In this document: piece by piece, positions 12,581 through 33,459 of the stretch | Layout of the letters: every line of letters begins with the position of its first letter | Numbering within the stretch: position 1 is the first letter of the stretch | Assembly (NCBI GenBank): GCA_028876695.1 | Contig: JAGWRH010000111.1 | Span: 1 to 33,459, forward strand | Source: Acidobacteriota bacterium | Lineage (GTDB): Bacteria; Acidobacteriota; Terriglobia; Acidiferrales; UBA7541 | Reading direction: 5' to 3' | DNA length: 33,459 nt | Translations under genes and position numbers: made by a program | The notes under the pieces: generated by a model | Told to the model about the DNA's origin: nothing | What the model saw: the letters and a program-made list of their open reading frames with translations, nothing else | Database searches by the model: none

Positions 12581-12719
12581 TATTGGCCAGATGCCTTTTG
12601 CGCTTCAACGGGATGTTTCTTTCCATCGCGTCCTCGGCGATGCAGCCGGGCTGAATAGGGAGGCGCCCGACGGTCGTCGCGCGATCGGCGGCCCGGTCGC
12701 CACCGAACGATCAATACGA

Positions 12720-13739: not shown

Positions 13740-13748
13740 TGTGCTCTC

Positions 13749-16052: not shown

Positions 16053-16098
16053 CAGGAGGGGTCCTTAAAACTTCCGCGAACTCAGAACGTCGCTCACT

Positions 16099-17160: not shown

Positions 17161-17252
17161 TGCCAGAGGTGACCCCGGAACACTATGCCCAGCGGAGTTA
17201 TCGATGTCAATCAGGGTTTGCACAGCCGGACATCTCGATGATTCGAGCAGGA

Positions 17253-18557
17253 CTAATCGGCGGCAGATATGGACTGGCGCACTTGCCCAGAGTCCTCGTG
17301 CAGGCTCGACTGGCGAGGAAGCGCAGCAGACGGCAGCGGCGGAGAGATTGCAATCGAGACTTGCATCAGGAATAGAAGCGCGTTCGCGGGTATGTGAAGA
17401 TTAAAATCGACAAAACTGTGCACCAACATGCCGAACACACCGGCGATAGCTCCGGCGTGCATCGCGCCGGAAAAGTGTCCCTGCTCGGCTTGGAAATTCT
17501 TTCGCGCTTCCCTGTATAACAGCCAAAGGAAAGTAAGGCCGCAAACCGCACCTAGAATACCGGCCTCGGCGAGCGCTTCCAGATAATCGTCGTGGACATG
17601 ATCCACGATTCGCCGGTCGTACGCTGTGTCGAATTGCGGGAACACATCCACCAGCGCGCCGAGCCCGCAGCCTTTTAGTGGATGGGCCAAAAAGATGAGG
17701 ATGGCGCCATGCCCCATGGAGATGCGTCGCGCCAAGGTGACTTCGGGGTTGCTCAAGCCGGAAAATTTTTCGGCCGTTTGACCGACGCCAATCCAGGCGA
17801 CAAACCCGATCGCCACGACAACGGTAAGCATCAGTGCTGTATTGCGACTATTGCGCATTCTTCGCTGTTGGCCCGGCCGCCAGTATGCCAGGAGCAACAG
17901 GAGCGCGATCTCCAATGCAAGGCTTATAATTCCGCCGCGGGAGCTCGACAAAATATCCGCGCCCACCGGGACTACGGTTAGGAGCACCAGCAGCGGCGTT
18001 AAGGTGCTCCGAGCGCCTCGAAAAATAATCAGCGCAAGCCCGATCGGTAGAGTGAGTTCGACAAAACCGGCAAAATGATTGCGGTTCACATATGGACCAA
18101 ACGGCTTCACGCTGCTCTTTAAGCTATAGAACCAATAAATTTCGTTTCCTGATGTGAACTGTTGTGCAATCGCGAAAAGCGAGACCGCAAAGCAAAAGAT
18201 AATCACGAACCAAGCCAATTTCGACCAATGCTGGCGGGTGCGAAACGCCTGCGCAATCAAGAAGAAGATCACGAAATACGCCGTCAAGCGGAGAATTTCC
18301 GCGCGAGTGAGGAAGGACGAAGCCGTACCGTGAAACAACAGCTGAAATCCACCAATTGCGATCAGACCGAGAAACGGCCAATTCAGGGCGTTCCATCGCA
18401 CCGAGGCTTCAGGGTCGCGCCAGGCGATGCCAGCCCACCATGCGAGCAGCAGCGCCGCAGCCATTTCCAGAATCGACTGCGACCAGACGTCAACCGCGCC
18501 GAAGCTCAGCACGGCGAACGCCACGAGCGCCAGCAGGCTGAAGCGCAAAAGGGTCAC
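17253..18557 (-). CDS. O-antigen ligase / Wzy-family polytopic membrane protein
   Basis: 434 aa with about 10-12 TM helices and one larger loop, the usual Wzy_C/O-antigen-ligase layout. The GTG start at 18557 overlaps the upstream stop (GTGA, 18554-18557). The call is by topology and context. Confidence 0.75.
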   Translation of the reverse strand: MTLLRFSLLALVAFAVLSFGAVDVWSQSILEMAAALLLAWWAGIAWRDPEASVRWNALNWPFLGLIAIGGFQLLFHGTASSFLTRAEILRLTAYFVIFFLIAQAFRTRQHWSKLAWFVIIFCFAVSLFAIAQQFTSGNEIYWFYSLKSSVKPFGPYVNRNHFAGFVELTLPIGLALIIFRGARSTLTPLLVLLTVVPVGADILSSSRGGIISLALEIALLLLLAYWRPGQQRRMRNSRNTALMLTVVVAIGFVAWIGVGQTAEKFSGLSNPEVTLARRISMGHGAILIFLAHPLKGCGLGALVDVFPQFDTAYDRRIVDHVHDDYLEALAEAGILGAVCGLTFLWLLYREARKNFQAEQGHFSGAMHAGAIAGVFGMLVHSFVDFNLHIPANALLFLMQVSIAISPPLPSAALPRQSSLHEDSGQVRQSISAAD

Positions 18558-19993
18558 GGTCGTAATCCCTCATTCGACGGCATTGGCACGAGTGAGACGT
18601 CCGCGATCCAAAGGGTTCCAGAAAGTTTGTTGTCGAATAGACGACTCGGCGGACGGATCAGGCGCACGACGACGAAGTGTGTCTGCGGGCTCACTACGAA
18701 ATCGGCGTCCACAGGTGACCAGCCGTGCGATCCGGTGAAGTTGTTCGTCACTACGTCGACCGCACTGGCGTGATTCGGATCGGTAATCGAGAAGCGCGGC
18801 CCGCTTTCGGTGGTAATTGAATCGGTTCGCATCAATGCGTGGAAATGGTAGGCCTGGCCCGGCTCAACCGGGACGTATTGGTACGGCCCCTCCAGATCCA
18901 GGTTCGAGCCGCCATTGAAATCCAGCCGTAGCGCGCGCGCGCCGTCACCAGACGGAGCCGTTTCGAACGCTACATACACTCCTGTCATTGGAGTCCATCG
19001 CCAGCCGAGCCCTCCGTCGGCAAAATCCGTGACAAAATCGCCGTTCCACAAGACGGATCGCGACTCACCGTGACCCGGACGGGCTTCGCTGGAGGCGACC
19101 TGCGACCACACGCGCCGCGCATCGTCGCTTCGGTCCTGCGCAATGAGTTCATTCAACAGGGGGAACGTGCTGGAGACCGCCACACCGACCCTCGATTCCG
19201 CCACACCCGTCCAGACGGAAAGAGCTGCGTCGCATTGGTGAATGCCCGCAAAATAGTCGATTGCCCGAAGGTAAGCGCTCGTGCTCGGCGGGAGCAGCCG
19301 ATCTACAATTTGACTCGCACTTCCTGTAGCACGCCACGCGCGGGAAATCGCCATGGGCAGCAGTGACGGGTCTTCTTCAACAGCGCGACGAAGCTGCGCG
19401 AAACCGGGCCCATAGTCCGCCTGCCGTAAAAGGAAGTTGCCATAGTAGAAAGCGACCTCGGCAGAATCCGGATACACCGCTTGCGCCCGGACGAACGCTT
19501 TGGCTGCTTCCCCAGCATTGCCTGACGCTTCTTCGGCGCTTGCGAGATCCATCCAATAATCGGCGGAACGCGGATCCTGGCGCAGCGCTCTGCGATAGGC
19601 ATCAATCGCGCCTCGCAAATCGGAGCCCGCGAGTTTCCATTGACGCAGATGCCCCAGATTGTCCCACGCCGCGGCGTCGCTGGGGATCAGTGTGGCACCG
19701 CGCTCAACGAGGCTGACGTTTTGCGAGTTGATCCAGCGATTCTCGATCCAAAGCTCGATAGCCTGGAAGATCAGCACGGCGGCGATCACAGCACAGCCCG
19801 CAATTACGAAGGTGCGATGGCGCGCATTCGTAAGCGCAATGTCCATAGACGCGTAATCTGCTATGAGGATGTCGAACCGCGCAAGTGCAATTTGGAATTT
19901 GCCATGGCAATCACGCGTCGGCTCGCCAATTGTTCGGACAAGGGGCGCGGGCAACGCGCCCACCTCAATATAGCGGCGTCCTTTCGCGCTCAT
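18554..19993 (-). CDS. Membrane-anchored TPR-repeat protein with C-terminal beta-sandwich (CBM-like) domain
   Basis: N-terminal TM segment [24 protein letters not shown]-like repeats include [61 protein letters not shown]. The last ~170 aa ([20 protein letters not shown]...[10 protein letters not shown]) look like a CBM4/9-type jelly roll. The start is uncertain (ATG at 19993 or an internal Met at 19846). Confidence 0.65.
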
Positions 19994-21191: not shown

Positions 21192-22622
21192 ATGATGGCC
21201 CGCCCAGAAACAACAACGTCGGCCCGCGAGCGGATGAGTGCGGCGATCCGCGATTTGCAGGAGCTTCTCGGCGGCCGCGCGACCACCGCGGACATTGTTC
21301 GCGAGCACCACAGCCATGGCGAGTCATACCATCCAGCTGCCGCTCCAGACGTGGTGTGCTTTCCGCATACGACGGAAGAGGTGAGCGAGATTCTGAAAGT
21401 CAGCCGCCGGCATCAGGTGCCGGTGATCCCGTTCGGCGCCGGCACTTCGATGGAGGGGCAGATCAACGCGATTCGCGGCGGAATCACGATCGATATGCGC
21501 GAGATGAACAAGATTCTGCGCATTAGTCCCGAGGATTTGCAGGCGACAGTGCAAGCGGGCGTACCGCGGAAGGAATTGCAAAGGGCGCTGGCCAATACCG
21601 GATTCACGTTTTTCATCGATCCGGGTGCGGATGCGACGATTGGGGGTATGACGTCAACGCGTGCTTCGGGAACCACGGCTGTGCGATACGGCACGATGCG
21701 GGAAAATGTGCTGGCGCTCACCGTGGTCCTCGCGGATGGACGCGTGATCCACACGGGATCGCGCGCTCGAAAATCCGCGGCTGGTTACGATCTGACGCAT
21801 CTTTTCGTCGGCGCGGAGGGCACGCTGGGCGTGATTACCGAAATCACGCTTCGCCTGCATCCGCTCCCTGAAGCGGCAGGCGCAGCCTGCGCAACATTTC
21901 CAACGGTTCGCGACGCGGTAGAGGCGGCGATCGGCGTCATTCAGCTTGGCGTGGCGGTGGCGCGCATCGAGTTGATGGACGAGGGGCAAATCGACGCATG
22001 CAATCGATATTCGAAAACGAGTTATCCGGTTGCGCCGATTTTATTTTTCGAGTTTCACAGCGACAGCACGCGCGGCGTGAACGAACAGGCCGAAACCGTC
22101 AGGAAATTGGCTGAAGAGAGCGGCGCGACGGGATTTCAATGGTTCACATCGCCTGAAGAGCGCGAGACGCTTTGGAAGATGCGCCATGAGGCCTACTTCG
22201 CCACGCTCGCGATCCGCCCCGGCGGTAAAACGTTTACGACGGACATCTGCGTGCCGATTTCGCGGCTGGCGGATTGCATCGTGGAATCGAAGAAGGACGT
22301 GGCGGACGCGCCGTTCCCTGCCGTGGTCGTCGGGCACGTGGGCGACGGAAACTTCCACATGGCTTTCGTGCTGGATCCGAATAATCCGGCGGAACACGAC
22401 GAAGCATTGCGGCTCGAGGAAAAGATCATCCGGCGCGCGCTGGAAATGGGGGGCACGTGCACGGGCGAACATGGCATCGGCTTCGGGCGCAAAAAATATT
22501 TGCCGGTTGAGCACGGGGCGGCACTGGAAGTGATGCGAGCGATCAAGCAGGCGCTCGATCCGGATGATCGGATGAATCCCGGGAAAATGGTGGATCCACG
22601 ACCGCTGGATGGCGCGGTTTAG
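21192..22622 (+). CDS. FAD-linked oxidase, D-lactate dehydrogenase (cytochrome) / glycolate oxidase GlcD-like
   Basis: 476 aa. The FAD_binding_4 pattern is VPVIPFGAGTSMEGQ. The C-terminal FAD-oxidase domain ends in GGTCTGEHGIGFGRKKYL...MRAIKQALDPDDRMNPGK, typical of GlcD/Dld. Confidence 0.9.
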   Translation: MMARPETTTSARERMSAAIRDLQELLGGRATTADIVREHHSHGESYHPAAAPDVVCFPHTTEEVSEILKVSRRHQVPVIPFGAGTSMEGQINAIRGGITIDMREMNKILRISPEDLQATVQAGVPRKELQRALANTGFTFFIDPGADATIGGMTSTRASGTTAVRYGTMRENVLALTVVLADGRVIHTGSRARKSAAGYDLTHLFVGAEGTLGVITEITLRLHPLPEAAGAACATFPTVRDAVEAAIGVIQLGVAVARIELMDEGQIDACNRYSKTSYPVAPILFFEFHSDSTRGVNEQAETVRKLAEESGATGFQWFTSPEERETLWKMRHEAYFATLAIRPGGKTFTTDICVPISRLADCIVESKKDVADAPFPAVVVGHVGDGNFHMAFVLDPNNPAEHDEALRLEEKIIRRALEMGGTCTGEHGIGFGRKKYLPVEHGAALEVMRAIKQALDPDDRMNPGKMVDPRPLDGAV

Positions 22623-22654
22623 CGCCGTGCGTTTCTAACTGCGGTAAAATTCCT

Positions 22655-23848
22655 TCAGCAGGCCCGTTTCCAGCTTGCGGGCGCGTCGATGTACGAGCGG
22701 TCAAGATCCGCGACCGAGGCACATCCGAGGAGCTTCAAAACGCGTTCCAAGTCGGCGCGAAGGATTTGAAGCGCGCGCGCAACGCCTGCTTCGCCCGCGG
22801 CGCTGAGTCCGTAGGCATAGGCGCGGCCGATGAGCACGGCGCGGGCGCCAAGGCAGATCGCCTTGGCAATGTCACTTCCGCGGCGCACACCACCATCCAT
22901 AAGGACAACACCGCGGCTGCCGACCGCCTCGACAACTTCCGGCAATGCACGGAGAGATGCCGCGACACAATCGAGTTGCCGCCCGCCGTGATTCGATACG
23001 ACAACTCCTGCAGCGCCCTCGTCCATCGAGCGGCGAGCGTCGTCGCCGGTAAGCACCCCTTTGACGATGATCGGTCCCTTCCAGGCATCGCGCAACCACC
23101 GAACGTCGCTCCACGTGACCACCGAACGGCTCAGCGCCGCCTGGGTTTCCGCCAGCGGCATCGCTCCGCGGCCGGGAACGATCACGTTGGGCAACGTCAG
23201 CATTCCGCCATCGCGCAAGAATCCGGCTAGCCAGCTTGGCTTCGCCAGCACTTGCGGCAAATGCGGGACCTTGGCGAGGAAGCTTGGTCCGGTGAGGGCG
23301 CCTGCGCCGTTGCGGACGTCGCGCTCGCGCAAACCGAACGTGCCAGTGTCGATCGTAATCGCCAGAACCGTGAATCCCGCCTTCTGAGCCCGTTCGAGGG
23401 TAGCTTCGGCGGCTTCGCGCCCGCCGACGAGATATAGCTGATACCAACGCGGCCCGCTGGAAGCCTGCGCTACATCTTCAAGCCGGCTGCCGGAGATGGT
23501 GGAAAGTACGTAACCTACGCCCGCCTTCCCGGCGGCCCGCGCCGCGACCACTTCACCGCGCGGCCACATCATTCGCGTGAATCCAACCGGCGCGAGCAAC
23601 AGTGGCATTGAAAGATTGCCGCCCAGTACCTCGGTGCGGATGTCGCATCGGTCCACAAACAGTGCGTTGCGTGGGCGGAATGTGACGTCCTCGAATGCGC
23701 GGACGTTTTCGCGCAGTGTGACTTCGCCCTCGGCGCCGCCATCGACGTACTCGAAGACTGCACGCGGCAACCGCCGCTGCGCCGCGCGGCGCAGATCCGC
23801 GATATTGACGACGCGCGGCAGCGCGACTCTGCGTTCCGCGCGCGTCAT
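22655..23848 (-). CDS. FMN-dependent alpha-hydroxy acid dehydrogenase/oxidase (LldD / mandelate dehydrogenase / glycolate oxidase family)
   Basis: The track ORF runs to 24307 and overlaps the divergent ThDP gene. I chose the ATG at 23848 (MTRAERRVALPRVVNIADLRRAAQRRLPRAVFEYVDGGAEGEVTLRENV). The diagnostic motif VVSNHGGRQLD is present. Product length is 397 aa. Confidence 0.9.
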   Translation of the reverse strand: MTRAERRVALPRVVNIADLRRAAQRRLPRAVFEYVDGGAEGEVTLRENVRAFEDVTFRPRNALFVDRCDIRTEVLGGNLSMPLLLAPVGFTRMMWPRGEVVAARAAGKAGVGYVLSTISGSRLEDVAQASSGPRWYQLYLVGGREAAEATLERAQKAGFTVLAITIDTGTFGLRERDVRNGAGALTGPSFLAKVPHLPQVLAKPSWLAGFLRDGGMLTLPNVIVPGRGAMPLAETQAALSRSVVTWSDVRWLRDAWKGPIIVKGVLTGDDARRSMDEGAAGVVVSNHGGRQLDCVAASLRALPEVVEAVGSRGVVLMDGGVRRGSDIAKAICLGARAVLIGRAYAYGLSAAGEAGVARALQILRADLERVLKLLGCASVADLDRSYIDAPASWKRAC

Positions 23849-23995
23849 CGCTGGTCGCCCTCTCTCGGCGAAGATACCACTCGATTGAGAAGGTGCAAGG
23901 AAACCCCTTTCGCGCGGCCATTCTACCCGGTATTCTCTAGATTTTGTTGGGCAGATATATGATCGGCAGCGCTGAGCGGTTCGAGGAGACCAGCA

Positions 23996-25642
23996 ATGAA
24001 GGCCGGTGACGCGATCGCGGAAATCCTCAAACGCGAGGGCGTCGAGATTATTTTTGGATACCCCGTAAATCACCTGCTCGAATCCGCGGCCGCGCTTGGG
24101 ATCCGCCCGATCATCGTGCGACAGGAGCGCGTTGGACTGCACATGGCGGATGCGCTTTCGCGCCTGAGCAGCGGCCGAAAGCTCGGGGTGTTCGCCATGC
24201 AGCACGGCCCGGGCGCTGAGAACTCGTTTGGCGGAGTGGCGCAGGCATTCAGCGAATCCGTGCCGATACTGGTGCTGCCGATGGGTTATCCGCGCCGCAT
24301 TGCGCAAATTGATCCCAATTTCCGCTCTGCGGTGAGCATGCAGACCGTGACGAAGTCCGCTGAAGCAATCTGGTCAACCGCCGAGATCCCAAACATCTTT
24401 CGCCGCGCGTTTTCGCGCCTTCGCAACGGACGCGGCGGGCCGGCAGTTATCGAGATACCGATGGACGTTTTTGGCGAGGAAGTTCCCGAGCCAATCGCGT
24501 ACGGGCCCGTTGTTTCCGCGCGGTATGCTCCGGATCCAGCGGAGGTCCGGCGCGCGGCACAGGCTTTGGTCGAAGCGAAAAACCCCGTCATCTATGCCGG
24601 GCAAGGCGTCCATTGGGCGCTCGCTTGGCGCGAACTGAAATCGCTGGCCGAGATGCTGGGCGCACCGGTGGCCACGAGCCTGCAAGGAAAGAGCGCGTTC
24701 CCGGAAAATCATCCGCTCGCGCTCGGCGCCGGAGGAAATTCGTTTCCGGCGACGGTGCCGCATTTTCTGCGGAACGCCGACTGGATTTTCGGCGTTGGCT
24801 GCAGCTTTACGCAAAGCACGTTCGCTGTGGCCATGCCGCCCGGCAAGAAGTTTATTCATGCCACGCTCGATCCGAATCACATCAACAAGGACGTGCCCGC
24901 TGAGATTGCTCTAATCGGAGACGCGCAGTTGACGCTTGAAGGGCTGTGCGGCGAACTGACCAAACTTTTGCGAATGCCTCAGCCGAGGTCATGGCCTGTG
25001 GAGGCTGAAATCGCGCGCGTCCGCGAGGCGTGGCTTGCCGAATGGTCCTCGCGCATTAATTCGGACGAGGAGCCGTTCTCGCCATACCGCGTACTACGCG
25101 ATTTGCAACGCACCGTGGATGTGGCTAACACAATCATCACGCACGACGCTGGGAGCCCGCGCGATCAGCTCGCGCCATTTTGGGTCAGCACGGAGCCGCT
25201 CAGTTATATTGGGTGGGGAAAGACGACGCAACTCGGCTATGGCCTCGGACTGGCGATGGGTGCGAAGCTCGCTTGTCCCAATAAGCTCTGCATCAATGTG
25301 TGGGGCGACGCGGCAATCGGCTTCACCGGCATGGATTTTGAAACCGCCGTGCGCGAACGGATCCCGATCCTCTCAATCCTCCTCAATAATTTCAGCATGG
25401 CCATGGAAATCCCGATCATGCCGATATCGACGGAAAAATATCGCTCGACGGATATTTCGGGCGACTACGCAGCCATGGCGCGTGCGTTCGGCGGATATGG
25501 CGAGCGGGTGACGTCGATCAAGGAAATCGTACCGGCGATTCGGCGCGGGATCGAGCAGACGCGCAAGGGCGTACCGGCCCTCCTGGAATTTATTACGAAG
25601 AAGGAGACCGCGCTATCGCGTCAATATCATTCGCCGAGCTAG
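23996..25642 (+). CDS. Thiamine-diphosphate-dependent enzyme (acetolactate synthase / benzoylformate decarboxylase superfamily)
   Basis: 548 aa with the three-domain layout. The N-terminal PYR domain has GVEIIFGYPVNHLL...HGPGAENSFGGVAQAFSESVPILVL. The ThDP motif is GDAAIGFTGMDFETAVRERIPILSILLNN. SD GAGGAG lies 8 nt upstream of the ATG. Confidence 0.9.
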   Translation: MKAGDAIAEILKREGVEIIFGYPVNHLLESAAALGIRPIIVRQERVGLHMADALSRLSSGRKLGVFAMQHGPGAENSFGGVAQAFSESVPILVLPMGYPRRIAQIDPNFRSAVSMQTVTKSAEAIWSTAEIPNIFRRAFSRLRNGRGGPAVIEIPMDVFGEEVPEPIAYGPVVSARYAPDPAEVRRAAQALVEAKNPVIYAGQGVHWALAWRELKSLAEMLGAPVATSLQGKSAFPENHPLALGAGGNSFPATVPHFLRNADWIFGVGCSFTQSTFAVAMPPGKKFIHATLDPNHINKDVPAEIALIGDAQLTLEGLCGELTKLLRMPQPRSWPVEAEIARVREAWLAEWSSRINSDEEPFSPYRVLRDLQRTVDVANTIITHDAGSPRDQLAPFWVSTEPLSYIGWGKTTQLGYGLGLAMGAKLACPNKLCINVWGDAAIGFTGMDFETAVRERIPILSILLNNFSMAMEIPIMPISTEKYRSTDISGDYAAMARAFGGYGERVTSIKEIVPAIRRGIEQTRKGVPALLEFITKKETALSRQYHSPS

Positions 25643-25660: not shown

Positions 25661-27712
25661 TCAGTTACCGGACGGCCGGGCCGGCTCCTCTGGGCCCGCA
25701 GCCGGCACGACCACAATCTGGCCGTACTCCCACGGATACTCCTTGCAGTGGTAGGCGTAGGTACCCGGCTTGTCGAACGTATGCTGCCCGATGTCGAGTG
25801 GATGGAGCGTACCCGTTGACCACGACCCGTCCACGGCAACGATCGTATGGTCGAGCACGCCGTTGTTTCGCCACATGACCCGGGTGCCAACGGTAACTTG
25901 CGCGCGATACGGATCGAACTCGTATTCGTCCTCGATCACGTGCTGGCCGGTAAGGCCCATGTCGCGTACGGCTGAAGCCGTAAGGATCGTATCGGTCTTG
26001 GTGACGGCCCCGGAGAAATCCTGCTGGGGAGGGGTCGGCGGCGCGGGCCGCTGCCCGATTGTTCCGCCCAGCTTGAACGCCCACACCTGGCCGCCCGCAA
26101 TGCTGACGATGTACTGCTCGCCCGCATTTTCAAACGCGACCGGCGGCCCGCCAATGGGCGACCCCGTCTGAAATTGCCACCGCAGAGAACCATTTGAGGC
26201 GTCGTACGCCTGCAGATTGCCATCGCCGGCCATCTGAAAAACCAAACCTCCCGCGGTCGCTAGGGCTCCGCTCGGTTTGCTATCGTGAAATTCCTTTTTC
26301 CAGGCGATCCGGTTCGTGCGGCTATCGATGGCGGCCAGAACTCCATAACCCATTTTGTTCAGACCCGGCACGCGATTGCTAAAACCCAGGCTGAAAAAGT
26401 CCGGATCTTTTGTCCGTCGAAACCACTGCAGCGCCGCATTTCCAGTAGCGTAAAAAAAATGCGTTTGCGGATCATAGGCCATCGGCGTGGAACGCATCCC
26501 GTACACGGGCTCGAGCAGATTCGGCTTGTCCACCGATCCGGGCGTAAAGAAGCATCCCAGATCGAAACCGGCGGGTATCTTTTGAGTTTTCCAATAATCG
26601 CAATCGGGAAGAACGGGTTCGGCACCGACGGGGTACGGTTGGGTTTTGGCCGTCTTTTGGTACGGATCCTGCGGTACGCGCCGCTCTTCAATGCGGCCGA
26701 GCGGTTTTCCCGTTTCGCGGTTGAACATAAACAGATATCCGTCGGTTCGGATTGCCGCGATCGCCTTTACCGTTTGACCGTTCGCGTCCGCATCGAACAG
26801 CACCGGAGATTCGGCGATGTCCGCTTCCCAAATGTCGTGGTGAACCACCTGGTAATACCAGCGCAGGTTGCCGGTTTTAGGATCCAGCGCGATCACGCAA
26901 TCGGTATAGAGATTATCCCCCGGCCGATATTCGCCGCCGTATTGCGGAACGGCATTGCCGGTCACGTAGAAGTCCACTCCGAGTTGCGGATCGTAAACTC
27001 CTTCAAGCCAAACGGCGCCGCCGCCGTGCAACCACGCGTTGTTATTCTTTGGCCATGTGTTGGAACCCGGCTGTCCCGGATTCGGCACCACATAAAAGCG
27101 CCATGCCTCTTTGCCGGTCATGGCATCGAATGCCACGATTTGTCCACGGTATCCATAATCCGCGTTCGTGCCGATCGACACGAGACCATCAGCAAACAAT
27201 GGAGCGCCGGAGGCGCCGCCGGTTGGTTCACCGGAGGGCGCAGCGAGCGAAACTTTCCAAACCGGTTCGCCGGTCTTCTCGCGCAGCGCGATCAAGCTCG
27301 CGTTAGCGGGATGCCACAGGCCGACGAAAACCATACCGTCGCCCACGGCCACGCCTCCATGCGACGGCTCCGTGCCGGCCGGAGCGTGATACTGCCATGC
27401 GACCTTTCCGGTGTTTATGTCGTACGCGTACACGTACGGCGGCGCGGTTACGAACATCAGCCCCTGGTCGACCACAGGCGTGGCGCGAGAACTCGGCGCC
27501 GGTACCATTTTGTCGGACACCCACGCCGCTCCCAGCTTGGTGACATTCTGGGCGTTGATGTCGCCGAGCGGAGAATATCGCTGATTATCCGCACCGTTCA
27601 CGGTGGACCACTGCGCGCTCGACGGCTGCGCGGCAATCGCGATGCATACGAGCACCGCGACCACCAACGCCCAAAACCGTGCCGCCTGCCATTTCCGCTG
27701 AGTTCGACGCAT
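25661..27712 (-). CDS. Periplasmic PQQ-dependent dehydrogenase (8-bladed propeller) fused to a C-terminal cupredoxin-like domain
   Basis: Sec signal MRRTQRKWQAARFWALVVAVLVCIAIAAQPSSA-QW. The quinoprotein pattern is GDNLYTDCVIALDPKTGNLRWYYQVVHHDIWEAD, with repeated W-motifs. The last ~93 aa (25664-25942) read FDPYRAQVTVGTRVMWRNNGVLDHTIV...GTYAYHCKEYPWEYGQIVVV, a plastocyanin/amicyanin-like layout. SD GGAGG is upstream. Confidence 0.85.
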   Translation of the reverse strand: MRRTQRKWQAARFWALVVAVLVCIAIAAQPSSAQWSTVNGADNQRYSPLGDINAQNVTKLGAAWVSDKMVPAPSSRATPVVDQGLMFVTAPPYVYAYDINTGKVAWQYHAPAGTEPSHGGVAVGDGMVFVGLWHPANASLIALREKTGEPVWKVSLAAPSGEPTGGASGAPLFADGLVSIGTNADYGYRGQIVAFDAMTGKEAWRFYVVPNPGQPGSNTWPKNNNAWLHGGGAVWLEGVYDPQLGVDFYVTGNAVPQYGGEYRPGDNLYTDCVIALDPKTGNLRWYYQVVHHDIWEADIAESPVLFDADANGQTVKAIAAIRTDGYLFMFNRETGKPLGRIEERRVPQDPYQKTAKTQPYPVGAEPVLPDCDYWKTQKIPAGFDLGCFFTPGSVDKPNLLEPVYGMRSTPMAYDPQTHFFYATGNAALQWFRRTKDPDFFSLGFSNRVPGLNKMGYGVLAAIDSRTNRIAWKKEFHDSKPSGALATAGGLVFQMAGDGNLQAYDASNGSLRWQFQTGSPIGGPPVAFENAGEQYIVSIAGGQVWAFKLGGTIGQRPAPPTPPQQDFSGAVTKTDTILTASAVRDMGLTGQHVIEDEYEFDPYRAQVTVGTRVMWRNNGVLDHTIVAVDGSWSTGTLHPLDIGQHTFDKPGTYAYHCKEYPWEYGQIVVVPAAGPEEPARPSGN

Positions 27713-27921
27713 GTTCCGTACGTCCTCCCGATACCTGAGTGCGTGTGCCGAAAAAATCCGGCGCGGTCACCGCCGCTTCTGTATACTTGCATCGTTCTAT
27801 TGTTGTCAAGACACCGTTGCCTCCCTGCCGGGCAGTCGCGTGGCCGCGGAAAAAGCTTCGGCGTTGAGCGCGGGCGCGGAGCTCTCTCTGATTAAGGAAG
27901 CAATTCGGGAGACGATTGACG

Positions 27922-28497
27922 ATGAGCAGCGACGGCGCGCGGCCATTCATGCGTCGGACAAAAGTTGAATCCGCCCCTATCCGAACAGGGCGCCTCGCGA
28001 GCGTGGAGCACCGGTATGACCGCGCTCCGCACATCGACTCGCTGATCCAGTTGGTGTCTGTGCGCGTCGTCCGGCTCTCGGACTTACTTCTGCGCATCGG
28101 CAAGATTACATTCGAGCGGCGATTCGGCGTAAAGCTAACGGAGCTCCGGATTCTGATCATTCTCGGGGCTTTTCATTCCATTTCGGTGAACGAAATAAGC
28201 CGCAGAACGCATATCGACAAGGCCTGGATCAGCCGTTCGCTGCGAGGACTGCTCGGCCGCAAGTTGATTAAGAGGACGCCCCATCCCGCCGATAACCGCG
28301 CTTCCTCGTTGTCCTTGACGAAGAAGGGCGAGGAGCTGTTACGGCGTATCGCGCCGGTCGCGGAGGAGTATCAGCGCCAGCTGCTTGAGGGACAGAAAAG
28401 CCGCGACGTGGAACAAATGCTCGACCTGCTGGCGGAACGCGCCGAAGGAATTTACCAGCACGAAAGTCGGCAGCAGAAGCAGGTGGCGCGCCGTTAG
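27922..28497 (+). CDS. MarR-family transcriptional regulator
   Basis: The winged-helix core is LTELRILIILGAFHSISVNEISRRTHIDKAWISRSLRGLLGRKLIKRTPHPADNRASSLSLTKKGEELL. I prefer the ATG at 27922, which follows GGGAGA at 9-nt spacing. The track start at 27916 is TTG. Confidence 0.85.
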   Translation: MSSDGARPFMRRTKVESAPIRTGRLASVEHRYDRAPHIDSLIQLVSVRVVRLSDLLLRIGKITFERRFGVKLTELRILIILGAFHSISVNEISRRTHIDKAWISRSLRGLLGRKLIKRTPHPADNRASSLSLTKKGEELLRRIAPVAEEYQRQLLEGQKSRDVEQMLDLLAERAEGIYQHESRQQKQVARR

Positions 28498-28548: not shown

Positions 28549-30339
28549 TTAGGCCCATTCGTCAATCGAAGTGCCACGGTCCGGCATAAAATCCGTGGCG
28601 AACCACACGCTTGCGGTCTTTCCGCCGGTGACGATCGCGTGAATGGCATTCGCATTCGCGAACGGTTTGATCAGCGTATCGCCGGTAACACCCAGCCAAT
28701 CCGCGTACGGTTTCAGTCCTTGGCGCGCCAGCGGAGCGAGCATGCTGGACACAATCGAATTCCCCCAGTACGACTCCGCGGTCTTCTGAACGTTCTGCGA
28801 GAGCCACTGACCGAGCGCCGCCTTGGTTTTGAAACCTTGCACGCCACTCAACAGATCCGCAACGGATGGGTCCATAATCAGCGTGGCGCCCATCCCTGAA
28901 AGCGACGACATATAGTCGCGCATCAGGAATTGCGGTGCGTAGTGCTGCTCCACCCAACCCGTGCTATTGATGAAATTCCAGCCGGTGAAGATCGTCACCA
29001 CGCTGTCCGTTGCCTGATGCCCCAACTGGACGTGCAAAGGCTGCCATCCCGGCGGCAGAGCCTCCTCGTTTTCGGCGAAGCAGAGGTTGTCGTACCGGAG
29101 CGGGTTGCTGAGCGAAGCGAAACCGGTCACGCCCTCGACGTATCCCTGAATGACTTTGTGTATCAGGGTCATCGAGCGGCCGATAACTGCGTTCGCCTCA
29201 TTGTCCGGGCCCAGAGCGCCCATCCCGGAGTTCATGCCGATCTTGTTGCGGATCGGACCGTTGACCACGACCATCTGCGCGATCGAGGTCGTGGAATCCT
29301 GATACGGCACTCGAGTTGAGAGCGCCAGGATGACCGGCAGATATTCCGGCCTCGCGCCGGCCATAACGGCAATTGTGGCGACTTTCTCGACGGTGAACGG
29401 GCGGCGCGAGCCGAACGTCCCCGCGGCGCTTTTCACCACTTCATCCGGCGCGTGGCTGGTGCCCTTGAGCATGGCGGCGACCCGCTCCGGCGTGGGAAGG
29501 ATTACCGGGTTGTAGTCCGTCCAGCCCTTCTGCCGAAACAGGTCCTGCAGGTTGTCCTGGCTATCCGGCCGAAGCATGCGCGGCTCGGCCGCAGGCGCAT
29601 CTGGCGACGGTCCTGACAAATTCTCCCTGGCCGAGAGCGGTTTTGTAAGCCCATCGACAATTGCGCGCATAAAAGGCGCGCCGCTGACGGTATCTTTGCC
29701 GTGGACGTACGACGCCAGCACCGAGCGCGGCTGGCCGGAGAACGGAAAAGGTACGCCGACAAAGCGCAGCGGCATGCCGGTGTTGTACTGGAAATTAGCT
29801 CCGAGCCCGAACGACACGACGTTTGAGCCCGCAAGAGACACGGTTGGGATGTGATACTTCTGCTCGATTTCTCCAGCTTCGCGGCTCACGGCCCCGACGC
29901 AGCCGTGTCAACCGGCTACACCGATGACGACGCCGTCGCCGTGATTCCCGGCGATCTCCTTCCACAGGCCCGGATCATCGGTAACGAAGTTGCCGGCCTT
30001 GATCTTGATGATTATCTTTGCGCTGGGAATGTTCTGCGCAAACCATTTCTGGATTTCTTCCAGGATGCCGTCGTTCTGCTGCATCCCTCCCCAGTCTGTA
30101 TCCACCAGGTAAATGGTTTTACCTTCGAGCGTGCTGAGCCGCGGCGCAAGCGGAACGCGGTCCGCGAACCTCGTTGCGATCGCGGGATTCAGCACCGACA
30201 CCATACTGTTATCCGACCCGCAATTTGCGGCTTCTGGGACACGTTTTGAGGCTGCCGGAGAGGTACGAGCAAATGACGGGCTAACCGCCGCGAGGGCCGG
30301 ACTTACACCGAGCAGCGCCAACATTTTTCGTCGATCCAT
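28549..30339 (-). CDS. Putative selenoprotein, paralog 1 (~596 aa): Tat-like signal, GrdB/PrdB-like UxxC redox module, ~450-aa module of unknown family; in-frame UGA at 29910-29908
   Basis: Track ORFs 29908-30441 and 28549-29889 share one frame (both upper bounds are divisible by 3). Hand translation across the junction gives ...GDGVVIGVAG-TGA-HGCVGA-GTG(V)-SREAGEIEQKYHIPTV. The GTG used by the track as a start is only 6 codons after the TGA. I chose the ATG at 30339 because GGAGG lies at 30350-30346 with a 6-nt spacer. The N-terminus reads MDRRKMLALLGVSPALAAVSPSFA. The coding potential of both halves is certain. Read-through as Sec is an inference. Confidence 0.7.
29880..29907 (-). promoter_or_regulatory. 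Candidate SECIS-like hairpin(s) immediately 3' of the UGA of paralog 1
   Basis: The mRNA reads UGA CACGGCUGCGUCGGGGCCGUGAGCCGCG. Option A: CACGGC (29907-29902) pairs perfectly with GCCGUG (29892-29887), leaving a 9-nt loop. Option B starts 11 nt after the UGA: CGGGGC (29896-29891) pairs with GCCGCG (29885-29880) with one G-G mismatch and loop CGUGA. Folded by eye only. Confidence 0.4.
29908..29910 (-). other. In-frame UGA, candidate selenocysteine codon (motif GVAG-U-HGC)
   Basis: Plus-strand tca at 29908-29910. The flanking codons are GGT (Gly) on the 5' side and CAC GGC TGC (His-Gly-Cys) on the 3' side. Paralog 2 has a UGA at the same motif position. Confidence 0.7.
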
Positions 30340-30376
30340 ATTCCGCCTCCGCTTCCGATTCGCGATCTGCTTCTCT

Positions 30377-32140
30377 TCAGTGGGCACCGTTACTTGGTTC
30401 ATCCGGCAGGCCGCAACTTCCGTCGGCGCAGCCGTCTGCAAGCGGCTTCGCCCGCCATTTATCGACAGAAGCGCTGACGGTGTGCGAAAAATCCGAAACC
30501 TTCCACATTGGGCTCGTTTCGCCCCCGACGACCACGATGTTCATGTTTTCCGGCTTATCATATGGGGCAATCAGCGCGTCTTTTGGCAATTTCTTCCAGG
30601 TAGCGTAAGGTTCCACGCCTTGAATCGCAACCGGACCCATGAGCATGTCGATCAGGTCGTTGTCCCAAAATTCGCCCGCGGGCATTTTGAAGTTTAATGA
30701 AAGCCACCGGCAAAAATCGAGCTTGGTTTGGAAACCTTCGTCGTGCTTCAGGTGGCGCGCTACGAGCGGGTCGAGTATGAGCGTCGCGGCAGAGAACAAT
30801 CCGGGCAGCGGCCGCAATTGGGTGAACATGTCCTCGCCAATCGATCGACGCGATGATCCGACGACATTGTTGATAAAATTCCAGCCGCGGAAGAGGCTGA
30901 CTGCGCTTTCATGCGCCTCGTAGCCCTTTTGCGCATGAAACGGTTCCCAGGGACTCCGTTCCTCGTTTTCCGCCACGCACATGTTGTTGTACCCGATCGG
31001 ATTGCCCTGCGACGTCCAGAACTGCTTTCTCAACCGGAAATAGCCCCAATTGATGCTCAGAAGAGTCCAGGCGCGGCCGATTACGGAATTGGCGAGCGCT
31101 CGGGGGCTGAATGCGCCAATACCGGAATTCATCTCGATCTCGTTGCGAATGGGACCGTTCACCAAAAGCATGGTCGCAAACGGGGTGGTCGAGCCGGGAA
31201 TCGAAGGCTGACCCGTTGAGGCCACGGCCAGAAGAACGGGCAGATGCTCGGGCCGCGCCCCGGCCATCACCCCAACAATCGCCACCATCTCGACCGTGAA
31301 TTTCAAGTGTTCGCGCGTGTCGTGAAGATAGATCTCGCCGACCACCTCGTCCGGCGCATGTGTAGTGCCGGTGAGCATATGCCCAACGCGCTCCTCGGTA
31401 GGCAGGATGATCGGAAGACCGTCGGTCCAGCCGCGCTCGTAGAACAGGCGCTGCAGATTGTCCTCTGTATCGGGTTCCAGCAGTGCTTGCCGTACGCCGG
31501 TCCGCGTGACTGGCACGTACGTATCGGCGCGCTCATCTTCTCCAAGCGGTTTGGTGAGGGCTTCAATGATCTCGTCAGTCACGCTGCGATGGCTTGCCGG
31601 ATCCGTTCCCTCGATGTATTTGCGAAGCACCGCCGCGGTCATTCCCGCGACCGGATGCGGTGTGTATGTAAAGCGGAGCGGAACGCCATGGAAGCGGCGA
31701 TCGTCCGCAAGAACGGCGGCGAATTCGAGGGTGGACACCGGCGCCGTCGGAATTCCGTATTCCTGTTCAAGCGTGCGGGAGCAAGTGGCAACTGCCACCG
31801 CGCAGCCGGGTCAACCAGCGACGCCCAAAATCGCGGCGTCACCGTGCTCCTCGATTTCCAGCCACAAATCTTTGGTGTCGTCGCGAAACACGTTGCCCGG
31901 CTTTCGCCGGCGCACGGTCTTCACGGCCGGCATATGCTCCTGGAACCATGACTGCATTTCATCCAGAAATTTGCCGCTGCCGCCGAATCCTGTATCGACC
32001 AGATAAACGGTCTTGCCTTTCAGCGTATCGAGACGTGGCGCCATGCCTGACGATGCGCCTCTTCCTGGTGGCGCTCCATCGGGAGTGATCGTTCGATAGC
32101 CTTCGGGATTCAACACTGCGGACGTTACTTGCGTAGCCAT
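30377..32140 (-). CDS. Putative selenoprotein, paralog 2 (~587 aa): UxxC redox module plus ~450-aa module of unknown family; in-frame UGA at 31813-31811
   Basis: Track ORFs 31811-32140 and 30377-31798 share one frame (both upper bounds = 1 mod 3). The junction reads ...DAAILGVAG-TGA-PGCA-GTG(V)-AVATCSRTLEQEYGIPTA. The ATG at 32140 is preceded by AGGAG (32152-32148) with a 7-nt spacer. The protein aligns along its whole length with paralogs 1 and 3. Confidence 0.7.
31785..31798 (-). promoter_or_regulatory. Candidate SECIS-like hairpin 12 nt 3' of the UGA of paralog 2
   Basis: The mRNA reads UGA CCCGGCUGCGCG GUGGC AGUU GCCAC U. This gives a perfect 5-bp stem (31798-31794 / 31789-31785) and a tetraloop AGUU containing G-U. 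A flanking G-U wobble is possible. Folded by eye only. Confidence 0.45.
31811..31813 (-). other. In-frame UGA, candidate selenocysteine codon (motif GVAG-U-PGC)
   Basis: Plus-strand tca at 31811-31813. The flanking codons are GCT GGT (Ala-Gly) on the 5' side and CCC GGC TGC (Pro-Gly-Cys) on the 3' side. Confidence 0.7.
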
Positions 32141-32198
32141 GCGCCTGCTCCTGAATCGAGTTCTGGTAACAAATTACAGCGATGTGAAGAAAGGCCGG

Positions 32199-33459
32199 TC
32201 AGATCCACTCATCGACCGGCGCGCTCTTGACGTATCGCATCCCGCCGTAATCCCAATACAGATTATTCGACGATCCAGTGACGAGGACGTTGATTTGCGC
32301 TTTGCTTCGGAAATGCGGCGTCGATTCGTCCTGGCTCTGATAGAGAAACTGGGTAAGCTTCTCGACCGTGTCGTAGCCCTCGCTCTTCATGTAATTGGCC
32401 ACGGCCGGGCTAAGGACGGCCAGGATTCCGAAGAGTTGATCCTGATCGTTCGAGATGTTTTTCAGTTCCTGGGCGAAGTTCATATCTTTCGACCATATCG
32501 CGTGTCTGGAGTTCTTGGCCGAAATCACGCCCCAGCCCTCGAAGATGCTCACCACGTTGTCGCCCGCCTTGAATCCGTGGCGGGCGCTGAACGGCTGCCA
32601 TGGCGATTCTTTTTCGTTTTCGGCAATAATGATGTTGGCGTAATTCATCGGATTCCCGATCACGCCCATGTAAGTCTCACCGGCCTTGCCGCAATTTCCT
32701 CCGTTCAGCGAAAGCAGCGCATAGGCCCGGCCGATGGTGGCATTGGCGTGGCTGAAAGGCCCCAGTGCGCCGATGTGATAATTCAGGCCGATCTGATCGC
32801 GAATCGGACCGTTAATCACAACCGCTTCGGCAAACGAATTGTCCGAGCTTGAGATGGATTCCTTGCCGATGGATGCAATTGCCAAGATCACCGGAAAATA
32901 TTTCGGGTCGGCTCCCGCCATCACGGCATTCACCGCTACCTGCTTCACCGTGTACGACCAGTCTTCATAGACCCCTGGTGTCGGCGACATACGCCCGACG
33001 ATCTCGTCGGGCTTTCGGCTGGTGCCCTTGAGCATCGCTTCAACACGGTCCTCGGTCGGAAGCACGATGGGCAGGTAATCCGTCATTCTTTTTTCGATGA
33101 ACAAGCGCTGCAGGTTATCGGAGCTGTCGGGACCGAACGTTGCCGCGCCTGCGGATTGCGGGATCGTCCGGCTCGCGGTGTCTTCGTTGTTGAGCGGTAC
33201 CGTCAGTTGGTCAACGATCTCCTTCATCACGGCTTTGCCAGTGACGGGATCATTGCCGTCGATCACGTCGCGCTGGAGTTGTTCCGCCGTCTTGCCCCAG
33301 ACGGGCGATTTCACATAGGTGAATCGCAAGTGCGGCATACCTTTTTTCGCGGCATTTTCCTGCACGAGCTGCTGGAAATACTGGGTGATGATCGAGACGG
33401 TCGGCTTGTGATATTCGGATTCGAAGAAGACGTTATGGCCAACGACCGCTGGCGAGCAG
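32199..33459 (-). CDS. Paralog 3 of the same family; 5' end runs off the window at the UxxC motif
   Basis: The track calls GTG at 33365 as the start, but the frame stays open to the window edge. Hand translation of 33458-33366 gives CSPAVVGHNVFFESEYHKPTVSIITQYFQQL, followed by VQENAAKKGMPHLRFTYV... The Cys at 33458-33456 aligns with the Cys of U-x-G-C in paralogs 1 and 2. Base 33459 (C on the minus strand) fits the GGC Gly codon seen in both other copies. Confidence 0.8.
   Translation of the reverse strand, partial: CSPAVVGHNVFFESEYHKPTVSIITQYFQQLVQENAAKKGMPHLRFTYVKSPVWGKTAEQLQRDVIDGNDPVTGKAVMKEIVDQLTVPLNNEDTASRTIPQSAGAATFGPDSSDNLQRLFIEKRMTDYLPIVLPTEDRVEAMLKGTSRKPDEIVGRMSPTPGVYEDWSYTVKQVAVNAVMAGADPKYFPVILAIASIGKESISSSDNSFAEAVVINGPIRDQIGLNYHIGALGPFSHANATIGRAYALLSLNGGNCGKAGETYMGVIGNPMNYANIIIAENEKESPWQPFSARHGFKAGDNVVSIFEGWGVISAKNSRHAIWSKDMNFAQELKNISNDQDQLFGILAVLSPAVANYMKSEGYDTVEKLTQFLYQSQDESTPHFRSKAQINVLVTGSSNNLYWDYGGMRYVKSAPVDEWI

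What the first reader, a model, noticed from the sequence alone, without database searches (positions are those of the whole stretch)
28549..33459. Three tandem paralogs of a large UxxC (seleno)protein that the ORF track splits at in-frame TGA codons
ORF pairs 29908-30441/28549-29889 and 31811-32140/30377-31798 are each in a single frame and are separated only by TGA plus 6 sense codons. Read through, they give two ~590-aa proteins that align end to end with each other and with a third copy at 32199-33459. Shared blocks include DNLQxLF..GWTDxxPxxLPTxERVxxMLxGTxxxPDEVV, VMAGAxPxYxPVxLA, NGPIRxxIxxN, ANxxIGRxxxL, AENEx, VVxIFxGW, and a terminal xxD(E/K)W. Intergenic gaps are 37 and 58 nt with good SD sites, so this is probably one operon. 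The ~100 aa before the TGA plus the motif D-x-x-(I/V)-x-G-V-A-G-U-x-G-C ... E-(I/L)-E-x-x-Y-x-I-P-T resemble, from memory, the Sec region of glycine/proline reductase selenoprotein B (ILTST-U-GTC...EIE..GIP.V). However, no GrdA/C/D/E or thioredoxin genes are nearby, and the ~450-aa module after the motif does not look GrdB-like. I cannot place the family. It may overlap what RefSeq labels UGSC-family (seleno)proteins. A triplicated, multi-domain putative selenoenzyme in an aerobic-looking oxidoreductase neighbourhood looks unexplored.
Basis: partly seen in the sequence, partly recalled or inferred. Interest (0 to 1): 0.9.

Follow-up and report, generated by a model that had tools for sequence, protein, structure and literature searches.

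The report
Three tandem UGSC-family selenoprotein genes
Three neighbouring genes encode large proteins that almost certainly carry selenocysteine at an in-frame TGA; they belong to the catalogued but functionally unknown "UGSC" selenoprotein family, here fused to a very widespread 350-400-residue domain with no known relatives.

Summary
On the minus strand lie three paralogs, 39-43% identical: 28549-30339, 30377-32140, and 32199 to the window end (truncated). Copies 1 and 2 each have one in-frame TGA, at 29908-29910 and 31811-31813, inside a G-V-A-G-U-x-G-C motif.

Evidence that TGA encodes selenocysteine:
- All 107 motif sites in about 80 related loci from four or more phyla read TGA, with conserved protein sequence on both sides.
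- A hairpin 12-27 nt downstream covaries.
- Full-length homologs carry CxxC at the same position.
- A tRNA-Sec gene sits within about 6 kb of the ortholog in two related MAGs.
- TGA is an ordinary stop for 8 of 18 other window genes.

The N-terminal ~170 residues are a UGSC domain (Pfam PF24696); no GrdB signal was found. The C-terminal domain has no Pfam, NCBIfam or PDB relative, even with a pLDDT-90 model.

Elsewhere this C-domain is fused to thioredoxin-fold CPTC domains or a thioredoxin-reductase-like domain. In 5 of 5 loci checked it lay next to a stand-alone UGSC selenoprotein gene. I infer a selenol/thiol redox module serving an unknown catalytic domain. Copies 1 and 3 carry twin-arginine-like signal peptides.

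This is a new member of a known, uncharacterised family. Interest is moderate.

The parts
28549..30339 (-). Copy 1: full gene, 596 aa read through, stop TAA. Layout: signal-like N-terminus, UGSC domain, Sec at residue 144, then the C-domain.
   Evidence: orthologs in 11 loci start at the same MDRRKML
30265..30339 (-). Copy 1 N-terminal twin-arginine-like signal peptide, MDRRKMLALLGVSPALAAVSPSFA|R
   Evidence: Conserved in 11/11 copy-1 and 4/5 copy-3 orthologs. HMM support is only weak. Assigned by eye.
29716..30195 (-). Copy 1 UGSC domain (Pfam PF24696, E=2.7e-9)
29908..29910 (-). Copy 1 in-frame TGA read as selenocysteine (GVAG-U-HGC)
   Evidence: TGA in all 11 orthologs
29874..29905 (-). Copy 1 SECIS-like hairpin, positions 6-37 after the U of UGA, apical loop CGUGA
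   Evidence: Consensus fold of 10 distinct orthologous sequences, with compensatory changes in L011 and L015. The single-sequence fold is not exceptional on its own.
28552..29565 (-). Copy 1 C-terminal domain with no known family, ending DEWA
30377..32140 (-). Copy 2: full gene, 587 aa read through, stop TGA. No signal peptide.
31613..32056 (-). Copy 2 UGSC domain (PF24696 E=2.4e-17; NF041046 53.5 bits, below the 125-bit equivalog cutoff)
31811..31813 (-). Copy 2 in-frame TGA read as selenocysteine (GVAG-U-PGC)
   Evidence: TGA in 77/78 orthologs
31776..31808 (-). Copy 2 SECIS hairpin. The well-supported upper helix is 31784-31799 with loop AGUU (GGUC in most orthologs).
   Evidence: Covariation score 0.335 against <=0.116 for slid partners; 0/500 shuffles reach it; four upper pairs show compensatory changes.
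30452..31471 (-). Copy 2 C-terminal domain with no known family
30401..30430 (-). Copy 2 C-terminal tail C-A-D-G-S-C-G-L-P-D (CX4C). Conserved in copy-2 orthologs, disordered in the model.
32199..33459 (-). Copy 3: gene truncated by the window end at the Cys of UxxC. Contains the last part of the UGSC domain (33264-33459) and the C-domain (32202-33128).
   Evidence: the full ortholog with TGA and a signal peptide is in L001
27916..28497 (+). MarR-family regulator, convergent with copy 1. Conserved neighbour of the paralog cluster, so a candidate regulator.
   Evidence: Pfam MarR; an orthologous MarR lies next to copy 1 in 12 related loci

Best explanation
Shown: the three genes are paralogous selenoprotein genes. 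Each product has an N-terminal Rossmann-like UGSC domain. In that domain a U-x-x-C motif sits at the end of a beta-strand and the start of a helix, and the U is encoded by a TGA that is recoded with the help of a hairpin 12-30 nt downstream. A 350-400-residue C-terminal domain follows, belonging to a very large family that no library describes.

Inferred: the UxxC pair cycles between a selenol/thiol and a selenenylsulfide form. It acts as the dedicated redox centre for chemistry carried out in the C-domain on a small, still unidentified substrate. In other lineages the reducing power comes from thioredoxin-reductase-like, SDR or flavodoxin-type partners.

Copies 1 and 3 carry twin-arginine-like signal peptides and are probably exported. 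Copy 2 has no signal but carries a flexible CX4C tail. The three may act as separate isoenzymes or as one complex.
For: Sec decoding:
- TGA is kept in 77/78 copy-2 orthologs, with GVAG-U-PGC conserved across the stop.
- All 107 motif sites in about 80 loci are TGA, never TAA, TAG or Cys, including three or more further paralog groups.
- The copy-2 hairpin has compensatory changes. Equivalent hairpins occur in the copy-1 and copy-3 groups.
- Full-length homologs carry CSTC, CPGC or CGSC at the U position.
- A tRNA-SeC gene lies 5-6 kb from the ortholog in L017 and L021.
- TGA is a normal stop for 8/18 other window genes.

Family:
- PF24696 UGSC is matched above threshold.
- NCBI names close relatives 'UGSC family (seleno)protein'.

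Redox-module inference:
- The C-domain is also found fused to AhpC-TSA/thioredoxin-like domains with CPTC, and to a TrxB-like domain with CADCDG.
- In 5/5 loci examined where the C-domain is not fused to UGSC, a stand-alone U-G-S-C selenoprotein gene is adjacent.
- A TrxB-like gene (CASCDG) flanks tandem Sec-type fusions in Actinomycetota.
- An AlphaFold model of a CPGC homolog (pLDDT 90.5, pTM 0.91) places CxxC between strand 94-100 and helix 105-118.
- All three window copies keep the invariant C-domain residues.
Against: - No sel genes and no tRNA-Sec lie in the window. The host genome could not be searched.
- Single-sequence hairpin energies are unremarkable.
- The substrate and reaction are unknown. 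The C-domain has no Pfam, NCBIfam or PDB relative.
- Of 17 full-length representatives at 50% clustering, 12 lack the CxxC (for example TVTS, MDTL). Several of these also lack the C-domain cysteines. The C-domain's core chemistry may therefore not be redox, or those proteins may be non-catalytic partners.
- Neighbourhoods differ between phyla, and the window itself has no thioredoxin reductase or SDR next to the genes.
- If copies 1 and 3 are periplasmic, the source of reductant is unclear.
- The Tat assignment is by eye; HMM support is only E=0.019 for one ortholog.
Confidence: 0.75

Rival explanations
1. The TGAs are real stops. Each locus is then a pair of separate genes, a ~110-140 aa UGSC fragment and a ~450 aa protein, and no selenocysteine is inserted.
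For: Gene callers in every database split them this way: all top 120 hits cover <=81% of the read-through protein. Stand-alone UGSC genes and C-domain genes do occur as separate neighbours elsewhere.
Against: The stop is always TGA, 107/107. The codons between the TGA and the first possible start (PGC.., HGC..) are conserved as protein. The split falls inside the UGSC domain, not between domains. CxxC full-length homologs exist. The SECIS hairpin covaries. Even the stand-alone UGSC genes carry the same in-frame TGA.
Confidence: 0.03
2. They are selenoproteins, but the C-domain is not a thiol-dependent reductase. It could be a hydrolase, isomerase or binding module. The UGSC domain would then be regulatory, a redox switch, or a metal- or cluster-binding site rather than a catalytic electron donor.
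For: Many full-length homologs have no Cys at the UxxC position. Amidohydrolase, formamidase and amino-acid/peptide transport genes recur as neighbours. The weak sequence resemblance of the motif region is to nitrogenase-like or HGD-D Rossmann domains that hold cluster ligands (E=0.05 and 0.09). The stand-alone UGSC proteins have U-x2-C-x2-C-x2-C.
Against: The C-domain is repeatedly fused to three unrelated dithiol-redox modules, including a thioredoxin-reductase-like flavoprotein. Only the U/CxxC pair is conserved in the fused forms. Sec strongly dominates over Cys, which is typical of catalytic redox sites.
Confidence: 0.2
3. They are divergent members of the glycine/proline reductase selenoprotein B (GrdB/PrdB) family.
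For: PrdB is listed with a UxxC motif in PMC2398784. Thioredoxin-reductase-like and amino-acid transport neighbours occur in some phyla.
Against: No match to Pfam GRDB PF07355 for any of 17 N-domains at E<=10, nor for the whole proteins. No grdA/C/D/E, prdA or thioredoxin genes lie in the window. The C-domain is unrelated to anything in the PDB.
Confidence: 0.05
4. The TGAs reflect pseudogenisation, sequencing error or an alternative genetic code (TGA = Trp or Gly).
For: One ortholog (L020) is disrupted upstream of the motif.
Against: The same codon is found in about 80 independent assemblies. The aligned residue in full-length homologs is Cys, not Trp or Gly. TGA terminates 8 of 18 other window genes at sensible ends.
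Confidence: 0.01

Closest known systems
UGSC-containing selenoprotein family (Pfam PF24696; NCBIfam NF041046 'UGSC family (seleno)protein'; Zhang & Gladyshev, PMC2398784)
   Same: Same domain (E down to 3e-34 among family members). Same position of Sec/Cys in a U/C-x-x-C motif, followed by ..LE..yGiPtv. TGA plus a downstream hairpin. Mostly Sec forms, with a minority of Cys forms. Function unknown.
   Different: The classical protein is a ~150-190 aa single domain with U-G-S-C. Here the motifs are U-P-G-C, U-H-G-C and U-S-Y-C, and scores are below NCBIfam's equivalog cutoff (53.5, 23.6 and 19.1 bits against 125). The domain is also fused to a 350-400 aa C-domain. A 'UGSC/Unknown_1' fusion was reported in 2008, but the figure is held only as an image, so I could not confirm that it is the same domain.
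Glycine / D-proline reductase selenoprotein B (GrdB, PrdB; Pfam PF07355)
   Same: Sec in a UxxC motif of an alpha/beta protein. Selenol/thiol chemistry fed by the thioredoxin system. Some related loci encode TrxB-like proteins and amino-acid-type transporters.
   Different: No detectable sequence relationship. No Grd or Prd partner subunits. A different C-terminal module. Two of the three copies look exported.
Thioredoxin-fold UxxC/CxxC selenoproteins (Prx-like, Trx-like, DsbA-like)
   Same: A redox-type U/CxxC at a strand-helix junction. The same C-domain is fused to AhpC-TSA/thioredoxin-like CPTC domains in other organisms.
   Different: The modelled N-domain is a parallel Rossmann/flavodoxin-like fold. 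Its Foldseek neighbours are the FtsZ N-domain, flavodoxin and lumazine synthase, all weak. It is not a thioredoxin fold.
Tat-exported selenoprotein formate dehydrogenase-N (FdnG)
   Same: A precedent for a Sec-containing protein with a twin-arginine signal. The only HMM hit of the signal region was to the 'formate dehydrogenase region TAT target' model (E=0.019).
   Different: No molybdopterin or Fe-S domains, and the catalytic module is unrelated.

Membership tests
UGSC family (seleno)protein | Match to the family's domain model (Pfam PF24696) above the gathering score | tested here: met
   64.1, 37.8 and 29.1 bits against GA 25 for copies 2, 1 and 3; 17/17 N-domains of homologs match
UGSC family (seleno)protein | Score above NCBIfam NF041046's equivalog cutoff (125 bits), meaning the same protein as the small UGSC protein | tested here: not met
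   53.5, 19.1 and 23.6 bits. These are domain relatives, not equivalogs. PGAP nevertheless names close relatives this way.
UGSC family (seleno)protein | Sec (TGA) or Cys at the first position of a U/C-x-x-C motif at the conserved site | tested here: met
UGSC family (seleno)protein | Single-domain architecture of ~150 aa | tested here: not met
   587-596 aa two-domain proteins. Stand-alone forms are seen in L092-L096.
Bacterial selenoprotein gene (general) | The in-frame TGA is conserved as TGA, with coding conservation on both sides | tested here: met
   77/78 orthologs; 107/107 sites
Bacterial selenoprotein gene (general) | SECIS stem-loop shortly downstream of the UGA, supported by covariation | tested here: met
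   No Rfam family was matched.
Bacterial selenoprotein gene (general) | Cys-containing homologs aligned at the Sec position | tested here: met
   P0135, P0137, P0142, P0151, P0199, P0352 and others
Bacterial selenoprotein gene (general) | selA, selB, selC and selD present in the same genome | not testable with these tools
   None in the window. tRNA-SeC lies next to the ortholog in two related MAG loci. The host genome is not available.
GrdB/PrdB selenoprotein B | Match to Pfam GRDB (PF07355) | tested here: not met
   No hit at E<=10 for 17 N-domains or at E<=1 for whole proteins
GrdB/PrdB selenoprotein B | Operon with GrdA/C/D/E or PrdA, and thioredoxin / thioredoxin reductase | tested here: not met
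   Window genes scanned. TrxB-like neighbours occur only in Actinomycetota relatives.
Tat-exported protein | Twin-arginine motif + hydrophobic stretch + AxA site, recognised by a Tat signal model | tested here: inconclusive
   MDRRKMLALLG...SFA|R is conserved in orthologs. There is no TIGR01409 hit, only TIGR02811 at E=0.019 for one ortholog.

The most novel reading that the evidence does not exclude
The unannotated C-terminal domain has about 3,700 clusters at 50% identity, no Pfam entry and no PDB relative. It may be the catalytic subunit of a widespread, previously unrecognised selenium-dependent enzyme system, with the long-known but functionless UGSC selenoprotein as its obligate redox partner, either fused or encoded next door. 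Such a system could carry out a reductive cleavage, analogous in logic to glycine or proline reductase, on small nitrogen-containing or aromatic compounds in soil Acidobacteriota, Chloroflexota and Actinomycetota. It would include exported, periplasmic forms.
Probability: 0.3. Interest if true: 0.75.

Novelty: new member of a known kind. Interest (0 to 1): 0.45.

Why it matters
UGSC proteins are among the most abundant predicted selenoprotein families in environmental metagenomes (PMC2398784). No function has ever been assigned to them (reviews PMC9312934 and PMC13188914).

This window and its relatives provide a concrete handle. The UGSC module was accompanied by one particular large domain of unknown fold, either fused or adjacent, in every locus examined here. 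That domain is alternatively fused to thioredoxin-fold and thioredoxin-reductase-like modules. This makes a redox-partner hypothesis directly testable.

It also flags a practical annotation problem. Most members in public protein sets are stored as two fragments.

Tried and rejected
- Rfam scan of the whole window: no SECIS or other family.
- Single-sequence folding of the regions after each TGA: hairpins are present, but z-scores are -0.8 and +0.5, so uninformative on their own. Only the comparative analysis was decisive.
- Foldseek against the PDB with a first model of the copy-2 C-terminal ORF (pLDDT 70): best E=0.15 (fumarate hydratase class I, cyclic amide hydrolases, CyuA) with TM about 0.15. 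Treated as noise.
- Foldseek with the pLDDT-90 full-length model: only generic Rossmann hits to the N-domain.
- Profile searches of the PDB: nothing for the C-domain. For the UGSC domain, only E=0.05 to a nitrogenase-like protein.
- I tried to confirm that 'Unknown_1' of PMC2398784 is this C-domain. The figure is held only as an image, and the stored part of Dataset S1 does not include the UGSC section.
- Promoter and terminator scans: counts at the chance level.
- Looked for sel genes beside the tRNA-SeC in L017: none.
- Neighbourhood clustering of 80 loci found no universal partner. The recurrent ones were SDR genes (29 loci, Chloroflexota), MarR (12 loci) and a divergent PEP-utilizers/PPDK_N pair (10 loci, Acidobacteriota).
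Full report
**1. The observation**

On the minus strand the ORF list shows two pairs, 29908-30441 / 28549-29889 and 31811-32140 / 30377-31798. Each pair is in one frame and is interrupted only by TGA. A third homologous ORF runs off the window end.

- Read through, copy 2 is 587 aa from the ATG at 32140.
- Copy 1 is 596 aa from the ATG at 30339. GGAGG lies 6 nt upstream, and all 11 orthologs begin at the same MDRRKML. The TTG at 30441 used by the ORF track is therefore probably not the real start.
- The gaps between genes are 58 and 37 nt.
- The copies are 39-43% identical end to end.
- Copy 3 begins in the window exactly at the Cys of its UxxC, so its TGA lies a few bases outside. Its ortholog in L001 reads GVGH-U-SYC-SPAVVGHN.

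**2. Is the TGA selenocysteine?**

- A scan of one genome per species found 577 relatives, of which 80 loci were kept. At the codon aligned with the copy-2 TGA, 77 of 78 orthologs have TGA, and GVAG-U-PGC is conserved across it. These come from Acidobacteriota, Dehalococcoidia/Chloroflexota, Actinomycetota, Dormibacterota and Desulfobacteraceae MAGs. The one exception, L020, is disrupted upstream.
- A motif scan of all loci found 107 sites, and every one is TGA. They include the copy-1 (U-HGC) and copy-3 (U-SYC) groups and further paralog groups (U-EAC, U-DGC, U-NAC). A real stop would drift to TAA or TAG.
- The 54 nt after the UGA in 77 distinct sequences form a hairpin, at positions 15-20 and 25-30 with loop GGUC or AGUU. 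Four pairs change on both sides. The covariation score is 0.335 against at most 0.116 when partners are slid, and 0 of 500 shuffles reach it.
- The copy-1 and copy-3 groups have their own hairpins at the same distance, again with compensatory changes.
- Single-sequence energies are not exceptional, and Rfam has no match.
- An exhaustive search of 1.84 billion representatives found 3,759 relatives. They include full-length ~535-570 aa proteins with CSTC, CPGC or CGSC aligned to UxxC.
- ARAGORN found a tRNA-SeC gene 5-6 kb from the ortholog in two Actinomycetes MAG loci.
- In the window, TGA ends 8 of 18 other genes normally, so this is site-specific recoding and not a variant code.
- The window has no sel genes or tRNAs, and the host genome could not be searched.

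**3. What the proteins are**

*N-terminal domain.* The first ~170 residues match Pfam PF24696 (UGSC) above threshold. They match NCBIfam NF041046 only below its equivalog cutoff. All 17 N-domains of diverse homologs hit UGSC, and none hits GRDB even at E<=10. NCBI already names close relatives 'UGSC family (seleno)protein'; others are called 'hypothetical'.

*Literature.* The papers found treat 'UGSC-containing protein' as an abundant predicted selenoprotein of unknown function. A 'UGSC/Unknown_1' fusion was mentioned in 2008. I could not verify that Unknown_1 is this domain.

*C-terminal domain.* The remaining 350-400 residues have no Pfam or NCBIfam match in any architecture and no PDB sequence relative.

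*Structure.* A model of a natural CPGC homolog reached pLDDT 90.5 and pTM 0.91. It shows a parallel alpha/beta N-domain, with CxxC between strand 94-100 and helix 105-118. Foldseek found only weak, generic Rossmann-type hits to that N-domain and nothing for the C-domain. A first, poorer model gave only noise.

**4. Clues to how it works**

- A search started from a protein made of two tandem C-domains shows the same C-domain fused to other redox modules. One is an N-terminal AhpC-TSA/Redoxin/thioredoxin-like domain carrying CPTC, seen in dozens of clusters. Another is a C-terminal thioredoxin-reductase-like domain carrying CADCDG.
- I looked at five loci where the C-domain is not fused to UGSC. 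In all five, a stand-alone U-G-S-C selenoprotein gene with its own in-frame TGA is adjacent, often translationally coupled.
- In Gaiellaceae-type loci, one or two tandem Sec-type fusions sit with two SDR genes, a LivK-type ABC transporter and a TrxB-like gene (CASCDG).
- In Dehalococcoidales, one or two homologous SDR genes lie directly upstream in 29 loci. Flavodoxin and FMN-reductase-like genes sometimes follow.

These Rosetta-stone and neighbourhood links are the basis for my inference that UGSC is the dedicated selenol/thiol redox module of the C-domain.

Against a strictly redox role, 12 of 17 full-length representatives lack the CxxC, and some of those also lack the C-domain cysteines. 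Thioredoxin-fold fusions and C-domain-only proteins usually carry MAGC and FCF-AE(D/N)EE cysteines. The window's copies have MAGA at the first of these sites.

**5. Features specific to this locus**

- The same three-gene array, all with TGA, occurs in Candidatus Acidiferrales MAGs. The best matches to the window are Acidobacteriota MAGs at 85-88% identity.
- Copy-1 orthologs (11/11) and copy-3 orthologs (4/5) begin with MDRRKMLALLG...AxA, a twin-arginine-like signal. Other homologs have Sec-type signals. Copy 2 has none. HMM support for Tat is weak.
- Copy-2 orthologs end in a conserved C-x-D-G-x-C-G-L-P-D tail that is disordered in the model.
- A MarR gene (27916-28497) is a conserved neighbour in 12 loci.
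- In relatives, a PEP-utilizers/PPDK_N/biotin-carboxylase operon lies divergently upstream, beyond this window's end.

**6. Verdict**

It is a new member of a known but uncharacterised selenoprotein family, in a fused and triplicated form, and not a new kind of element. GrdB membership is not supported.

What remains open is the large C-domain family and its obligate pairing with UGSC. The link between UGSC and this C-domain is the most useful result here, because it turns an old orphan selenoprotein into a testable two-component or two-domain redox enzyme hypothesis.

Noticed in passing
L092:7001-9045, L093:7001-9156, L094:5001-7054, L095:5001-7034, L096:4179-7145: Genes for the C-domain fused to a thioredoxin-fold CPTC domain, or duplicated in tandem, are always flanked by a small stand-alone UGSC selenoprotein gene (ALAD-U-GSC-TSC-SVC) that itself has an in-frame TGA. 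This links the classical UGSC protein to this unknown domain.
   Followed up: partly
L017:9126-9219 and L021:6240-6333: A tRNA-SeC gene (anticodon TCA) lies 5-6 kb downstream of the copy-2 ortholog in two Actinomycetes MAGs. No selA, selB or selD was recognised among the ORFs scanned around it on L017 (1133-9557).
   Followed up: partly
window 30401-30430 (-): Copy 2 and its orthologs in several phyla end in a conserved C-x-D-G-x-C-G-L-P-D tail after the usual D-x-W-R terminus. It could be a mobile redox arm or a metal site.
   Followed up: no
L006, L008, L012, L015, L018, L019, L013: Related Acidobacteriota loci contain further Sec-type paralog groups (GVGG-U-EAC, GVGG-U-DGC, GVAG-U-NAC). Single genomes therefore carry four or more of these selenoprotein genes.
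   Followed up: partly
window 25661-27712 (-): A PQQ-dependent dehydrogenase beta-propeller with a signal peptide and a ~100-residue C-terminal extension that looks cupredoxin-like by eye (…YHCKEYPWEYGQIVVV). Orthologs occur near the paralog cluster in 3 related loci.
   Followed up: no
window 21192-25642: A cluster of an FAD-linked oxidase (GlcD-like), an FMN-dependent alpha-hydroxy-acid dehydrogenase with a ~175-aa N-terminal extension, and a ThDP enzyme. This is a mandelate/glycolate-type oxidation set next to the MarR gene.
   Followed up: no
window 8539-19993 (-): An exopolysaccharide locus: Wzz/GNVR tyrosine-kinase-like protein, Poly_export/SLBB, Wzy_C ligase-like, TPR protein, NAD epimerase, GT2-methyltransferase fusion and ABC-2 permease.
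   Followed up: no
window 5382-8366 (-): A 994-aa fusion of a carrier-protein site, an AMP-binding enzyme and an acyltransferase (Aas-like acyl-ACP synthetase / lysophospholipid acyltransferase).
   Followed up: no
L001:506-7566 (beyond the window's 3' end in relatives): Divergently from copy 3, ten Acidobacteriota loci encode PEP-utilizers and PPDK_N. In L001 these are followed by BCCP, biotin carboxylase, an HMGL/PYC_OADA carboxyltransferase and a HAD hydrolase. This may be a co-regulated neighbour, and any link to the selenoproteins is unknown.
   Followed up: no
L020:~5983: The one ortholog without the TGA is disrupted or frameshifted just upstream of the motif. It is either an assembly error or a pseudogene.
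   Followed up: no
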